Of a stretch of DNA of 64,000 nt, positions 4,960 to 48,049 are shown one piece after another; positions within the stretch are counted from its first letter, which is position 1, and every line of letters starts with the position of its first letter. Where the stretch lies: contig OX597836.1 of assembly GCA_951406725.2 (NCBI GenBank), positions 40,176,001-40,240,000 of the forward strand. Direction: 5' to 3'. The notes under the pieces are model-generated. The model was not told where the DNA came from, searched no databases, and saw nothing but the letters and a program-made list of their open reading frames with translations. This DNA is from Octopus vulgaris. Lineage: Eukaryota. The translations under genes were made by a program, and so were the position numbers.

Positions 4960-5717
4960 TGTAAAACGTGACCTGGACGTTATTGTCGACAGCGATTTGC
5001 GTTGGACAAAAGACGTCGCTAAAATTGCCAAGTGGGCTGAGGGTCTCTTGGCATCACTCACCAAGTCTTTTGTGAGCCGCTCTCCGGCTATTTATCTGCG
5101 GCTTTATATAGCTATGGTACGATCTCACCTGGAATTTGCATCACCGGTCTGGAAACCCTGTCTTGCCTAGGATATTAATCGTCTGGAAGCTGTTCAGCGA
5201 CGTGCAACCAAGAGAATACCCTCCATCAGGCATTTGCCATATTCTGAATGCCTTATTTCCCTGGGCATGGATACATTGAAACTCCGACGTCTGGCAGCTG
5301 ATTTGGAAGACACCCATACAATTATTAACCATCTTACAAACAATAACTCTGAGCATCTTTTCAAACTCCACCTGTCTAACACCCGTGGATATGTTTACAA
5401 AGTCAGAAAACAGCACAGCTCCCATGACTTTCGGAAACATTTTTTCACGCTAAGAGTTGCTGAAGCATGGGAACAGACTGCCGGCATCAGTTGTTAGTTG
5501 TTGGAGCACTGCATCCTTCAAAACTTCCATGCTTCCTGAGATTCGCCAAAACTACACCTGATTTTCTCCCCTCCATACACACACAGGCATGTATCTGACT
5601 CATATACAGTTCACTTTCCAGACATTTGTACGTTACTGCATATAATTTATACGCACTTTTGACAAGTTGTGGTGCACCTGAGCACTGTATACAATAATTT
5701 CATTATTATTATTATTA
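4960..5717 (+). mobile_element. CR1-clade LINE 3' fragment (end of ORF2, 3'UTR, (ATT)n tail)
   Basis: Translates as RDLDVIVDSDLRW...LYIAMVRSHLEFASPVWKP..*DINRLEAVQRRATKRIP...LRRLAADL...TRG...RKHFFTLRVAEAW, typical of the CR1 RT C-terminus; internal stop. Confidence 0.9.
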
Positions 5718-6051
5718 TAACACCCGTGGACATGTTTACAAAGTCAGAAAACAGCACAGCTCCCATGACTTTCGGAAACATTTTTTCAGGCTAAGAGTTG
5801 CTGAAGCATGGGAACAAACTGCCGGCATCAGTTGTTAGTTGTTGGAGCACTGCATCCTTCAAAACTTCCATGCTTCCTGAGATTCGCCAACACTACACCT
5901 AATTTTCTTCCCTCCATACACACGCAAGCATGTATCTGACTCATACACTGTTCACTTTCCAGACATTTGTACATTACTGTATATACTTTATACGCACTTT
6001 TGACAAGTTGTGGTGCACCTGAGCACTGTATACAATAATTTCATTATTATT
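5718..6051 (+). mobile_element. Tandem second copy of the CR1 3' end
   Basis: Near-identical to 5377-5717. Confidence 0.92.
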
Positions 6052-6301
6052 TTTAAAATTAACGACACGAAATCAGATAAACTAACTACAACAATAGCTT
6101 CATTTCTTATTAAGAATGCTGAGAAGGCGGATGGTAAATCGAGACACTCTCATAAATCAAGACACTGCTATTTTTAAGCCAGTTTGATTAACTTTGCTTC
6201 TCTTTTGGTACGCAAATATTTAGCTTGGAGTCGAACTTTAGATAAACACATACGGGTTTACCTTTCAACTGAGAGGAGGCGGTTTCTTTTTGTATTATTG
6301 A

Positions 6302-7543: not shown

Positions 7544-7701
7544 AGTAGCAGCAGTTTATTGTTCCTAATTCTAAGGTTTTCGTCCTTCATTAAATGTTTT
7601 ACCATTTCCATCATCAAATGCAGGCGTGTCTTTGTGGTTGAGAAACTCGCTTTTCAACCCTGTGGCTGTAGGTTCAGTCCCAGTGCGTGGCATCTTCAGC
7701 C

Positions 7702-8049
7702 ACCTACACTCGCCTCCTTATGAGAGTTCAAAATATTTCGTGGAAGCGCCATCCAACCAAAATGCAAATATATGGGAAACTACCACCTGTTTCATCTCTT
7801 GTGAAAGGTAGGAGAGTCCAGTTTGCTGGACATTGTTGTAGAGCTGAAAACGAGGTAATTTCTACTCTCCTCCTCTGGAAGCCATCTACTCGCAATACCA
7901 GAGGGCGCACACTCTCCTACCCTGATGTAATCTCCAGGGATACAGGTATCCAGCAACAGGACCTCCGTAATGCTATGATGGACCGTGAAGTCTGGCGTAG
8001 CATGGTAAATTCCATTGTCTCGACCACGGTCGAACAATGATTATGATGA
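7702..8049 (+). mobile_element. RTE-clade LINE, 5'-truncated 3' end
   Basis: TYTRLLMRVQNISWKRHPT...RRVQFAGHCCR...LLLWKP...AMMDREVWR* followed by (TGA)n tail; second copy at 23789. Confidence 0.88.
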
Positions 8050-8550: not shown

Positions 8551-9150
8551 GGCGACGAGTTAATAGGATCATTAGCACGCCGAGCAAAATGCTTAGCGGT
8601 ATTTCATCCTGGCAGAAGCGTTAGCACGTCGGGCGAAATGCTTAACGGTATTTAAATTCCGCCGAGGTCGACTTTGCCTTTCATCCTTTCGGGGTCGATA
8701 AATTAAGTACCAGTTACGCACTGGGATCGATGTAATCGACTTAATCCGTTTGTCTGTCCTTGTTTGTCCTCTCTGTGTTTAGCCCCTTGTGGGAAGTAAA
8801 GAAATAGGTATTTCGCTTGCAGTTATGTTCTGAGTTCAAATTCCGCCGAGGTCGACTTTGCCTTTCATCCTTTCGGGGTCGATAAATTAAGTACCAGTTA
8901 CGCACTGGGGTCGATGTAATCGACTTAATACCTATGTCTGTCCTTGTTTGTCCCCTCTATGTTTAGCCCCTTGTGGGTAATAAAGAAATAGGTATTTCAT
9001 CAGTCATTATGTTCTGAGTTCAAATTCCGTCGAGGTCGACTTCGCCTTTCAATCTTTCGGCATTGATAAATTAAGTACCAGTGAAACACTGGGATCGATG
9101 TGATCGATCACCTAAAATTCCAGGCCCTATGCCAATAGTAGAAAAGATTA
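8551..9150 (+). mobile_element. SINE family A multimer/nested array
   Basis: Core aaattccg.cgaggtcgactt.gcctttca occurs three times (about 8655, 8838, 9022). Confidence 0.88.
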
Positions 9151-19701: not shown

Positions 19702-19878
19702 GACAGCTAAATCTACAGATTTTTTTCATTCTCTCTCTGTGTATTTTCTCTTATCTCTTTATGTTGAAGAGCGTCGGCTCGAAACGTGAAAGACTTTTTC
19801 ATTTTCCCAAGCGTCAAACTAATATACTTGCTTGTTGCTCATACAATTATCTTCGTCATTTGTTTTACTGTAAATTAT
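19698..19878 (+). mobile_element. Short hammerhead-motif element family H, copy 1 (decayed core)
   Basis: tctttatgttgaagagcgtcggctcgaaacgtgaaaga at about 19756-19793; TA flanks. Confidence 0.65.
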
Positions 19879-24469: not shown

Positions 24470-24638
24470 CGCGATTTTTTTCTTTGCATTTTTATTTCTT
24501 TCCATCTGCTTTCTCCCCTTCATTTCTTTCTGCAGAAGAGCATAGACTCGAAACATTAAAGACTTTCTCATGAGCGTTAAACAAATGAACCATGTTTGTT
24601 GTTCTTTCACCTGTCTCTGTTTTATGTATATTTTAACC

Positions 24639-24640
<2 letters not shown>
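24470..24640 (+). mobile_element. Family H copy 2 (decayed hammerhead motif at about 24525-24563)
   Basis: tctttctgcagaagagcatagactcgaaacattaaaga followed by the family 3' segment. Confidence 0.6.
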
Positions 24641-30774: not shown

Positions 30775-30905
30775 ATTTGTTTTATTTATATTCCTGAGCG
30801 CCATACTAATACAATTGTTTGTTTGTATTCCACCTGCCTTCGTCTTTTGTTTATTTCCGTAAACCTGCCTTCGTCTTTTGTTTATTTTCATAAAGCTTCA
30901 CGTTA
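30775..30905 (+). mobile_element. Family H 3' portion, hammerhead absent
   Basis: attcctgagcgccatactaatacaattg... matches 44293-44370; internal short duplication. Confidence 0.7.
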
Positions 30906-41949: not shown

Positions 41950-42130
41950 TTACTCACTACATATTTTTTCTCTCCTTGTTTCTCTCCTTGTTTTTTCTGT
42001 GTCCCTTTCTGTAGAAGAGCGTAGGCTCAAAACGTAAAAGACTTTTCTATTCCTGAGCGTTATACTAATACATCTGTTTGCTTTGTACACCACCTGTCTT
42101 CGTCTTTTGTTTTTTTCGTAAACTCTCCCT
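41950..42130 (+). mobile_element. Family H copy 3 (hammerhead motif at about 42005-42042, G12 mutated)
   Basis: ctttctgtagaagagcgtaggctcaaaacgtaaaag. Confidence 0.65.
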
Positions 42131-44167: not shown

Positions 44168-44194
44168 GCACATATATGTATATATATGTATACA

Positions 44195-44378
44195 CGCATT
44201 TTTTTCTTCCTTGTTTCTCTCCGTGCTTCTTTTTTGTGTATCTTTCTGTTGAAGAGCGTAGGCTCGAAACGTAAAAGACTTGTTTTATTTATATTCCTGA
44301 GCGCCATACTAATACAATTGTTTGTTTGTATTCCACCTGCCTTCGTCTTTTGTTTATTTTCATAAAGCTTTCCGTTAT
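44195..44378 (+). mobile_element. Family H copy 4, best-preserved minimal hammerhead motif at 44241-44278
   Basis: UCUUU-CUGUUGA-A-GAGC-GUAG-GCUC-GAAA-CG-UA-AAAGA. Confidence 0.75.
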
Positions 44379-44537
44379 ATATATGTACATATAGATAGAT
44401 ATATATTTGTATATATATATACACATATATACTTATATATAAGTATATATATGTATATATATACATATATATATGCATATATATACATATATAAGTATAT
44501 ATATGTATATATATACATATAAATATGTATGTATGTA

Positions 44538-45462: not shown

Positions 45463-45635
45463 GCTGTGTGTCCCCCTAGCATTGCTTGACAACCGATGCT
45501 GGTGCGTTTACGTCCCCGTCACTTGGCGCTCGGAAATATAGAATAAAACAAGTCTTACAAAGAATAAGTCCGGGTCGTTGCTCGACTAAAGGCGGTGCTC
45601 AGCATGGCCGCAGTCAAATGACTGAAACAAGAAAG
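45455..45635 (+). mobile_element. SINE family B 3' half
   Basis: tccccctagcattgcttgacaaccgatg...gactgaaacaag. Confidence 0.85.
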
Positions 45636-45650
45636 TAAAGCGTAAACAGC

Positions 45651-45715: not shown

Positions 45716-45875
45716 ATAACGGGAAGCAGAAAATAGACAAAAGACGAAGGAGGTGGAAAACAAACGAACAATTGTATTAGTATGGCGCTCAGGAAATATA
45801 AATAAAACAAGTCTTTAACGTTTCGAGCCTACGCTCTTCAACAGAAAGATAAACACAGAAAGAGAGAGAAAAAAT
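45716..45875 (-). mobile_element. Family H copy 5 (hammerhead motif 45812-45849)
   Basis: Minus: tctttctgttgaagagcgtaggctcgaaacgttaaagac. Confidence 0.75.
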
Positions 45876-46768: not shown

Positions 46769-47002
46769 TTTATCTAATTTTATATATATATATATTATAT
46801 TGTGTGAAACTTGATTTAGTATTTCTAAATTGAATTTTTTTCCTTGTAAGTTTGGATTTTATTCCCTCAAATAATAATTATATATATATAATTATTATTT
46901 GAGGGAATAAAATTCAAACTTCGGAAGGATATTGAAGAGCTGTGGGTCTCGGAAGCCCAGGCTATCACAGTATCTTGTCCTACATATGGATGGCAAATTT
47001 GG

Positions 47003-47127
47003 AGTCAGAAGGAAACTAATCCCCTTCCTTGAAGAAAATGACTTGCTGCCTGACACCCAACATGGTTTCCGACCAGGAAGAAGCTGCTTAACTCAGCTCC
47101 TACAACACTATGACTGGGTGCTGAAAC

Positions 47128-47130
<3 letters not shown>
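47003..47130 (+). mobile_element. CR1/L2-type LINE RT fragment
   Basis: RRKLIPFLEENDLLPDTQHGFRPGRSCLTQLLQHYD (QHGFRPGRSC motif). Confidence 0.85.
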
Positions 47131-47168
<38 letters not shown>

Positions 47169-48049
47169 CACACACATATATATGCGTGTGTGTGTGTGTG
47201 TACACACACATATATATGTAGAGAGAGCGACAGACAGACAATCGGACAAATAGACAGTCAGAAAGTGAAGTTTCTCTTTTAAAATTGGGCAAAATGGAAT
47301 TCAGTACATAGATCATACATATGTATACATAATACACTCAAACACACACACACACACACACATGATTCTGATATGGGTAACTTTAGTACAAAATGTCGGT
47401 TGTTAATTTGATACGAGAGACCTACATTTACCTGTCTGTGTATAGGTATATGTGCGTGTGTGTGTGTATACAGGTATGTGTGGGCTAGTGATTGTGCGCG
47501 AGTATATATATCCATGTGCATGACACAGTCAGCAAGTGAGACAGAAAGAGCGGCGCCGGGAGCATAGTGAAAGTGAAACTAAGACACAGAAGATTCTCAT
47601 GTCACCGTTTCACTGTCATTTTAAATATTCTCACCGAATCTCATCATTTATATTTCTTTCATATCTTCTTCCTGTTATTGGTTTTCTTTGACTGTCGTGT
47701 TTTTGCTTCTTTTTTGTTGTTGTTGTTGTTGCTGTTGTTGTTTTTCATATTATTGTCTTCTTTTTGTTTTGTTTTTTTGGGAGGGTGGAGTGGCGGGGTA
47801 GGGTGGGTGGAGAGATTTTTTCAACTTTACATATCCGCTTAGTTCTACTCTATTTTCCGTCACTTCTTTGACTCTCTCTGTCTCTGTCTCTGTTTGTCTG
47901 TCTGTCTCTCTCTCTCTTCTTTTCTCTCTCTCTAACACTCTCTGTCCCTGTCTTCCTCACTCACTCACTCCCTCCTCTCATTCTTTCTCTGTTTATTTCG
48001 AAGTATGTAAATATAAATGCATGCGTAAATATATATATATATTATATTA

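What the first reader, a model, noticed from the sequence alone, without database searches (positions are those of the whole stretch)
44241..44278. Family H: minimal hammerhead with a family-wide pyrimidine at core position 6
Seen: UCUUU-CUGUUGA-A-GAGC(GUAG)GCUC-GAAA-CG-UA-AAAGA. Five copies have CUGUUGA, CUGUUGA, CUGUAGA, CUGCAGA and AUGUUGA, never A at position 6, while the stems are largely kept. Stem III has no loop (ACGU palindrome), so it could only fold as a dimer. Established: A6 is near-invariant and PLE minimal hammerheads work as dimers. Inference: a natural core variant, or a catalytically dead fold retained as a recognition signal in a roughly 170-bp mobile unit.
Basis: partly seen in the sequence, partly recalled or inferred. 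Interest (0 to 1): 0.7.

Follow-up and report, generated by a model that had tools for sequence, protein, structure and literature searches.

The report
Penelope-type hammerhead with fixed U6 core
A very common repeat of about 170 bases in this genome carries a hammerhead-ribozyme-shaped motif in which a normally unchanging core letter (A6) is U in the family's main lineages, so it is likely a weakened self-cutting RNA inherited from a Penelope-like jumping gene, of a kind that standard ribozyme searches would miss.

Summary
Confirmed, and extended beyond the window. Five copies of a 157-178-bp unit between microsatellites carry a 38-nt motif that fits the consensus of Penelope-like-element (PLE) minimal hammerheads except at core position 6 (U in 4 of 5, C in 1). 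In contigs of four public runs (44,429 laid), no other letter reached 3% of depth at position 6. Position 7, the free core position, is U/A/C at about 52-59/22-25/18-24%. A control family of the same build, lying behind GIY-YIG remnants, has A6 in 90 of 92 copies. Against function: no covariation, no tandem units, no parent ORF, no RNA evidence, and the motif is no more invariant than the 3' flank in the read table. Depth weighting hides single-copy changes. Best reading (0.45): a PLE-derived unit whose hammerhead was weakened by A6U but stayed under fold constraint. Rivals are a neutral dead relic (0.25) and a slow, protein- or Mn-assisted ribozyme (0.22). Natural A6C is in print. My searches found no natural A6U, but one key paper was not available.

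The parts
44198..44375 (+). Whole repeat unit (178 bp) from the ATTTTT start to the 3' (TA)n run
44198..44240 (+). U/pyrimidine-rich 5' leader, matching the 'U-rich' 5' flank of the min-HHR consensus
   Evidence: sequence; consensus line in PMC4209133 Fig. S3
44241..44278 (+). Type I minimal hammerhead-like motif: 5-bp stem I, core CUGUUGA, extra A, 4-bp stem II, GAAA, loopless ACGU stem III, predicted cut after A17 (44273)
44249..44249 (+). Core position 6 = U instead of A; no other letter at 3% of depth or more in 4 of 4 runs
   Evidence: table 3 (17 rows, none at 44249)
44250..44250 (+). Core position 7 (free N7): A 22-25% and C 18-24% of depth, the rest mainly U
44279..44375 (+). AU-rich 3' part of about 97 bp; its last stretch recurs as a 31-32-bp duplication in other copies
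   Evidence: (table 5c)
45719..45875 (-). Second intact copy, inverted, 1.35 kb away (93% identical over 136 columns); motif 45849-45812, core CUGUUGA, H17 = U
41963..42129 (+). Copy with core CUGUAGA and G12A; motif 42004-42041
19719..19875 (+). Copy with diverged flanks; core AUGUUGA, H17 = G; motif 19756-19793
24474..24639 (+). Most changed copy; core CUGCAGA, broken stem II pair, G16.2A; motif 24525-24562
30777..30902 (+). 3' fragment without the motif, beginning 6 nt downstream of the predicted cut site, with a 31-bp duplication at 30832-30894

Best explanation
This is a high-copy repeat of about 170 bp whose 38-nt motif fits the minimal hammerhead consensus of Penelope-like elements at every core position except 6, where U is fixed in the main lineages; it is likely the 3'/pLTR end of a Penelope-like element, likely copied by that element's reverse transcriptase into (TA)n-type repeats, and A6U likely leaves it cutting slowly or not at all while its fold stays constrained. 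Shown: the motif, five copies, microsatellite flanks, U6 fixed and N7 free in four runs. Inferred, step 1: descent from a PLE hammerhead. Step 2: A6U arose once in a founder, before the N7 lineages and the diverged-flank copies split. Step 3: after that the core stayed under hammerhead-like constraint, since family-level change fell on N7 and the outer positions. Step 4: the constraint comes from the PLE protein engaging the folded RNA rather than from fast self-cleavage. Weak cutting would also spare a single 170-nt unit, which has the cut site in its middle.
For: Fit to the published consensus 'U-rich, CUGANGAH, G..C, GAAAN palindrome NUH, AU-rich' except A6. No row at 44249 among 23,001 / 13,476 / 5,329 / 2,623 contigs laid, while N7 has two rows; most contigs were only 90-99% alike, so one- and two-letter variants passed the filter. 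Of 5 family-level changes in the 38 nt, 2 are at N7 (uniform P = 0.007; about 0.05 if any of 7 tolerant positions is allowed) and 0 are at the 13 invariant-type positions (P = 0.12). Among the five window copies 10 of 38 motif columns vary against 36 of 72 in the 3' part (Fisher P = 0.025). Control family with the same A-GAGC-N4-GCUC-GAAACGU build: A6 in 76 of 76 GAAACGU-bearing hits out of 120 pattern hits and in 90 of 92 distinct copies, U6 in 0; GIY-YIG-like ORF remnants lie upstream on the same strand in L018 and L068. Position-6 changes lower activity: natural A6C kobs 0.004-0.05 per min in Mg (PMC7151607); all CUGA-turn mutants except the C3-G8 swap were low (PMC9901934). A PLE hammerhead cut only with the PLE protein, and dead mutants still inserted in vitro (PMC11167929). 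(TA)n targeting and a 30-40-bp tail are PLE traits (PMC8557442); 31-32-bp 3' duplications appear in 5 contigs and in copy 30777. U6 is predicted to pair with A15.1 and close the core (P 0.42-0.98, against 0.00 with A, C or G).
Against: No compensatory change in 9 pairs across 5 copies, and G44277T (3-6%) and T44241C (13-20%) break stem I pairs without a partner change. Loop 2 is as invariant as the stems. In that table the motif is not more invariant than the 3' part (4 of 38 against 7 of 104 places, P = 0.49). Depth weighting hides minor variants: 3 of 5 window copies differ at H17, yet 44273 has no row, so diverged subfamilies are tested only by two window copies (U6 and C6). Linkage between N7 letters and other changes is unknown, and a mutation hot spot at 44250 is not excluded. 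No PLE ORF lies beside any window copy (tblastn with the L018 piece: 0 window hits) and no match was found to the Naiad, Chlamys or Hydra consensus files by short motif searches. In the one PLE tested, the protein-binding region was mapped to the first 172 nt of the ORF and not to the hammerhead as such. The fold is not more stable than shuffles (z = -0.53) and is weak in the whole unit (stem II P about 0.28). The A6 control family also folds into a closed rod, so core closing is not special to U6.
Confidence: 0.45

Rival explanations
1. Neutral dead relic: A6U killed the ribozyme in one founder, cleavage was not needed for copying, and the dead version was amplified with no further selection on the motif.
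For: No covariation. Motif no more invariant than the 3' part in the read table. Hammerhead-dead mutants insert normally in vitro, and Naiad PLEs reach high copy number without canonical hammerheads (PMC8557442). Three of 5 window copies carry further disruptive changes.
Against: Family-level change concentrates on N7, the one free core position. The motif is better kept than its flanks among the five window copies (88% against 72% and 55% without gaps; P = 0.025).
Confidence: 0.25
2. A working but slow natural variant: the U6 hammerhead cuts after A17 as a dimer through the ACGU palindrome, helped by the PLE protein or by Mn2+.
For: G8, G12, A15.1-U16.1, G10.1-C11.1 and NUH show no family-level change. 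Natural A6C cuts at about 0.3 per min in Mn2+. A PLE hammerhead is protein-assisted. Fragment 30777 begins 6 nt after the predicted cut (one case).
Against: Position-6 mutants are low in Mg, and min-HHRs with A6 are already slow. No tandem partner in the window, no whole-unit head-to-tail joint and no loose end at 44274 among the rows shown (contigs drop rare forms; 341 loose-end rows were not shown).
Confidence: 0.22
3. The motif now works as a plain rod hairpin, or as a DNA-level signal, and the hammerhead likeness is only ancestry.
For: Minimum-energy fold pairs U4-G5-U6-U7 with A14-A15.1-C15.2-G16.2. G16.2A (3-10%) keeps that pair but spoils the ACGU palindrome.
Against: N7 is non-pairing in about 41-48% of depth. 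The same G16.2A is seen in 10 of 92 copies of the A6 control. Fold z = -0.53.
Confidence: 0.05
4. The pyrimidine tract plus CUGYAG is a 3' splice site, and splicing supplies a normal A6 core, recalling the intron that ends in the Drosophila virilis Penelope hammerhead.
For: Long pyrimidine tract before the core; 2 of 5 copies read YAG there. An intron end maps to helix I in D. virilis (PMC4209133).
Against: The A of the would-be AG is N7, and it is A in only 22-25% of depth.
Confidence: 0.03

Closest known systems
Minimal type I hammerheads (min-HHRs) of Penelope-like elements (Cervera and De la Pena 2014, PMC4209133)
   Same: Short stem I, extra base after A9, G10.1-C11.1, loopless palindromic 15.2-16.2, NUH, U-rich 5' and AU-rich 3' flanks, mostly single scattered copies, some close inverted pairs.
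   Different: U6. All 44 rows of Fig. S3 that I saw (part 2 of 3 of the file) have A6, but their descriptor required it. Stem II is 4 bp. No parent ORF found here. The core variant reported there is U3-A8.
Natural A6C hammerhead of phage Bcep176 (Perreault 2011, PMC3088659; Naghdi 2020, PMC7151607)
   Same: Natural pyrimidine at core position 6.
   Different: A single phage motif, C not U, tested and slow in Mg, faster in Mn. Here U6 is fixed in a high-copy repeat family and is untested.
Poseidon PAc hammerhead (Frangieh 2024, PMC11167929)
   Same: PLE-type hammerhead; AT-rich insertion targets.
   Different: The passages report no position-6 variant. The motif overlaps the ORF start and its protein-assisted cutting was shown; here there is no ORF and no assay.
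Non-LTR retrozymes of animals (PMC7229834; bioRxiv 10.64898/2026.07.22.740005)
   Same: Short non-coding unit (their range is about 170-400 nt) with a type I hammerhead, probably PLE-derived.
   Different: Retrozymes are defined by tandem repeats and circular RNAs; these copies are solitary and no RNA was shown.
Naiad, Hydra and Neptune PLEs that insert in (TA)n (Craig 2021, PMC8557442)
   Same: Microsatellite flanks; hammerhead about 80-100 nt from the 3' end as in several Hydra entries of File S2.
   Different: Hydra hammerheads have A6 and a longer stem III. Naiads lack canonical hammerheads. No motif match to the supplied consensus files.

Membership tests
Hammerhead ribozyme | Core C3-U4-G5-A6-N7-G8-A9 | tested here: not met
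   6 = U in the family; the other core letters are met
Hammerhead ribozyme | G12-A13-A14, A15.1-U16.1 and H17 | tested here: met
   44266-44273; no family-level variant at these places
Hammerhead ribozyme | Stems I and II can pair, with G10.1-C11.1 | tested here: met
   43 of 45 cells paired; stem II P about 1.0 in the 38-mer for 4 of 5 copies
Hammerhead ribozyme | Covariation supporting the stems | tested here: not met
   0 two-sided changes; only 5 sequences, and the read table has no haplotypes, so power is low
Hammerhead ribozyme | Match to an Rfam hammerhead model | tested here: not met
   No hammerhead family at E up to 10 in 44200-44380; not checked whether these models detect A6 min-HHRs
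Hammerhead ribozyme | Self-cleavage 3' of H17 | not testable with these tools
   needs an assay
PLE min-HHR | Extra base between A9 and 10.1; palindromic 15.2-16.2 without loop; U-rich and AU-rich flanks | tested here: met
   against the consensus
PLE min-HHR | Located in the pLTR/3' end of an RT + GIY-YIG element | tested here: inconclusive
   No ORF beside window copies; no whole genome held; only the control family shows the link
Penelope-like element derivative | Insertion in (TA)n-type repeats; 30-40-bp terminal tail or partial tandem | tested here: inconclusive
   Microsatellites at the 3' end of 5 of 5 copies, but the window is very rich in them; 31-32-bp 3' duplications resemble but were not shown to be the tail
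Non-LTR retrozyme | Tandem repeats of the unit | tested here: not met
   None in the window; no whole-unit back-joint listed (contigs drop rare forms)
Non-LTR retrozyme | Circular RNA expression | not testable with these tools
   only contigs were available
tRNA-derived SINE | tRNA-like head and a pol III-readable body | tested here: not met
   No tRNA gene in the window; long T runs from the first bases would stop pol III (established knowledge); A/B boxes not scanned
MITE / DNA transposon | Terminal inverted repeats | tested here: not met
   0 pairs in 44190-44385; 1 internal pair in the 42004 copy (2 of 5 copies tested)

The most novel reading that the evidence does not exclude
A natural A6U hammerhead, amplified to roughly 10^4-10^5 copies, that is switched off as naked RNA and cuts only when the Penelope-like protein (or Mn2+) opens the core. 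It would show that PLE proteins can make up for a lost invariant core base, and that PLE families called hammerhead-less may hide core variants that CUGANGA descriptors cannot see.
Probability: 0.2. Interest if true: 0.72.

Novelty: new variant of a known kind. Interest (0 to 1): 0.5.

Why it matters
The role of PLE hammerheads is open: they are slow, one was shown to need protein, and cutting was dispensable for insertion in vitro. A very successful family that fixed a damaging core change yet still shows the N7-free pattern is a natural test of whether these motifs are kept for catalysis or for their fold. The test is cheap: a 38-nt RNA with one-letter controls. It also shows a blind spot, since the PLE searches I read required CUGANGA. 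If the motif proves dead and unconstrained, it is an ordinary decayed repeat.

Tried and rejected
No whole genome is held, so no per-copy alignment or parent search was possible. Rfam over the whole window gave 404 matches; the best 150 shown were microRNA-type models on microsatellites plus one viral UTR model, all below their gathering scores. The repeat finder was swamped by microsatellites. Pattern scans found no member of this family: viral contigs 0 and 0; prokaryote genomes 12 and 30 hits against about 4 and 17 expected by chance (the 12 were inspected and none has GAAACGU, the 30 were judged by their titles only); metagenomes 108 hits, of which one had CTGTTGA and lacked stem III. No RNA holder was listed; run X10 is only a guessed RNA run, so nothing is concluded on expression. 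Reading position 6 per copy through spurious translations failed: no candidate and 4 hits, of which the 2 fetched were unrelated repetitive proteins. A protein search with a LINE-like ORF at 7672-8037 gave 151 relatives but no organism names in the 120 rows listed. The host is therefore unidentified; a likeness of the window's SINE-like repeats to octopus repeats is recalled, not tested. Pfam and PDB gave nothing useful for the L018 ORF piece; only the Atlas pointed to GIY-YIG (11-21% of cluster members). Alternative register UUGAAGA (U3, A6 intact): rejected for this family because in 44241 it leaves a C-U mismatch next to G10.1-C11.1 and a 2-nt loop; the descriptor found it only in copy 19756, where it uses up stem III. 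Splice acceptor rejected. Literature searches for A6U or the motif letters found no natural case (the one A6U listing is a twister-ribozyme paper, seen as listing only). Roberts 2023 supplements hold no per-mutant values under the terms tried.

Full report
Setting. The window is AT-rich, repeat-dense DNA with 197 tandem-repeat rows and no tRNA gene. It looks like an animal genome. No whole genome is held and the host was not identified. A likeness of its SINE-like repeats to octopus repeats is recalled only.

Observation. The 38 nt at 44241-44278 read as described. A mismatch scan, blastn, an IUPAC search and a covariance model built from the copies each give five motif copies, and the next model hit has E = 1. 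Chance expectation is 0.02 per shuffle. A strict descriptor with positions 6 and 7 free finds 2 copies in the window and 0 in 100 shuffles. Position 6 is U in four copies and C in one. Each copy lies in a unit of 157-178 bp that starts at ATTTTT and ends in a microsatellite 77-97 bp after the motif. A 3' fragment without the motif lies at 30777. There are no terminal inverted repeats in the 2 copies tested and no tandem units.

Is U6 family-wide? Of 24 public runs listed, 22 hold part of the unit, under five organism codes. I laid 4 of them (X1, X2, X3, X10; three organism codes) at 80% likeness with differences listed from 3%. They gave 23,001, 13,476, 5,329 and 2,623 contigs. The table has 17 rows and none is at 44249. 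Position 44250 has two rows, T>A at 22-25% and T>C at 18-24%. The only other rows inside the motif are T44241C (13-20%), G44271A (3-10%) and G44277T (3-6%). So U6 is fixed in the dominant lineages, and the most variable place is N7, the one free position of the hammerhead core. This supports the register independently of the fold. Limits: depth is summed over short overlapping contigs, which favours shared variants and hides single-copy ones. Three of five window copies differ at H17, yet 44273 has no row. The result is therefore not a per-copy frequency, and a small or very diverged A6 subfamily could be missed. A rough copy range from peak depth is 6,000 to 220,000.

Control. A pattern scan with positions 6-7 and the loop free returned 108 metagenome loci, mostly one other repeat family with the same A-GAGC-N4-GCUC-GAAACGU build. 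All 76 hits with GAAACGU, out of 120 pattern hits in both collections, have A6. Among 92 distinct copies within five mismatches, 90 have A6, 2 have G6 and none has U6. In L018 and L068 a broken ORF piece with a CxxxxCxxC stretch and a GIY-YIG-like motif ends a few hundred bases or less upstream on the same strand; the Atlas places it with eukaryotic GIY-YIG clusters, while Pfam found nothing. So this build belongs to PLE ends and normally keeps A6. The control is a different family, and its link to an ORF does not prove one for ours.

Was the motif constrained after A6U? For: 2 of 5 family-level changes are at N7 (P = 0.007 under uniform placement, about 0.05 if any tolerant position counts) and none is at the 13 invariant-type positions (P = 0.12). 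Among window copies 10 of 38 motif columns vary against 36 of 72 in the 3' part (P = 0.025). Against: no compensatory change; two family-level changes break stem I pairs; the loop is as fixed as the stems; and in the read table the motif is no more invariant than the 3' part (4 of 38 against 7 of 104, P = 0.49). The evidence for constraint is moderate.

Folding. Stem II forms in the 38-mer (P about 1.0 in 4 of 5 copies) but only at about 0.28 in the whole unit, and the fold is not better than shuffles. U6 is the only letter predicted to pair with A15.1 and close the core. The A6 control also folds into a closed rod, so this is not decisive.

What is known. PLE min-HHRs have this consensus with A6; they did not cut as monomers and cut weakly as multimers (PMC4209133: parts 1-3 of 4 and part 2 of 3 of the supplement read). 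Natural A6C exists in phage Bcep176, slow in Mg and faster in Mn (PMC3088659: passages and section 8; PMC7151607: parts 1-2 of 4). In pairwise mutagenesis all CUGA-turn mutants but the C3-G8 swap were low (PMC9901934: passages). The Poseidon PAc hammerhead cut only with protein, and dead mutants still inserted (PMC11167929: passages). Naiads lack canonical hammerheads, several clades insert in (TA)n, and the core search used CUGANGA (PMC8557442: passages, sections 6-7, supplement parts 1-2 and searches). Seen as passages only: PMC7229834, PMC6765202, PMC6155905, PMC10085705, PMC11014351, PMC6962438. Seen in part: bioRxiv 10.64898/2026.07.22.740005 (part 1 of 5 and passages; its supplements are closed) and PMC13282606 (part 1 of 3, passages, supplement search; its repeat library is on Zenodo and was not seen). 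Searches for A6U or the motif letters found no natural case. Lunse et al. 2017, a paper on PLE-associated hammerhead variants, was not available and may bear on novelty; figures of all papers were not seen.

Mechanism. Most likely (0.45) the unit is a PLE end copied by a PLE reverse transcriptase into microsatellites. A founder acquired A6U, which weakened cutting, and the fold stayed constrained because the protein engages it. The 31-32-bp 3' duplications in five contigs and in copy 30777 resemble the PLE tail but were not shown to be it. Rivals are a neutral relic (0.25), a slow assisted ribozyme (0.22), a plain hairpin or DNA signal (0.05) and a splice acceptor (0.03). It works like, and likely descends from, a PLE min-HHR. 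It fails the A6 test and cutting is unshown, so I do not file it as a proven hammerhead ribozyme.

Earlier notes. The scan has none on this sequence or genome. It has U3-A8 and G3-C8 variants on other DNA, which I did not check.

Verdict. Real, family-wide in the dominant lineages, a new variant of a known kind, function untested. Interest 0.5.

Noticed in passing
window:45524-45556 (-), inside the SINE-like copy 45470-45640: 33 bp that match the 3' flank of the hammerhead repeat replace the usual SINE segment seen in other copies of that SINE-like repeat; the nearest hammerhead-repeat copy is about 260 bp away on the same strand. Local conversion, chimera or assembly error.
   Followed up: partly
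window:30832-30894 and contigs table 5c (44354-44360 back to 44335-44341): A recurring 31-32-bp duplication of the unit's 3' end, in one window copy and five contigs of two runs.
   Followed up: partly
window:43979-44010 (+): A single hammerhead-like stretch 260 bp upstream of the finding, core UUGAUGA (A6 present, U3.G8) with a 4-5-bp stem II and GAAAGCUU, but no clear stem I. Chance or a decayed other family.
   Followed up: no
window:18730-18774 (-): Weak relative with CUGCUGA-AGAG; blastn E 0.002, model E 4.8. Not counted as a copy.
   Followed up: partly
L013-L120, e.g. L018:3025 (-), L068:718 (+): A high-copy repeat family in metagenome contigs with a canonical-core minimal hammerhead and only a 3-bp stem I, behind GIY-YIG-like ORF remnants; some copies sit beside inverted partial copies.
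   Followed up: partly
window:44241 (+) and 45849 (-): The two intact copies are a 93%-identical inverted pair 1.35 kb apart, tail to tail; a read-through transcript could pair them.
   Followed up: no
window:7672-8037 (+), 46911-47279 (+), 5377-6055, 8654-9107: LINE-like ORF remnants (the first has 151 unnamed relatives; the LINE label is recalled) and tandem 341-bp and 184-bp repeats.
   Followed up: partly
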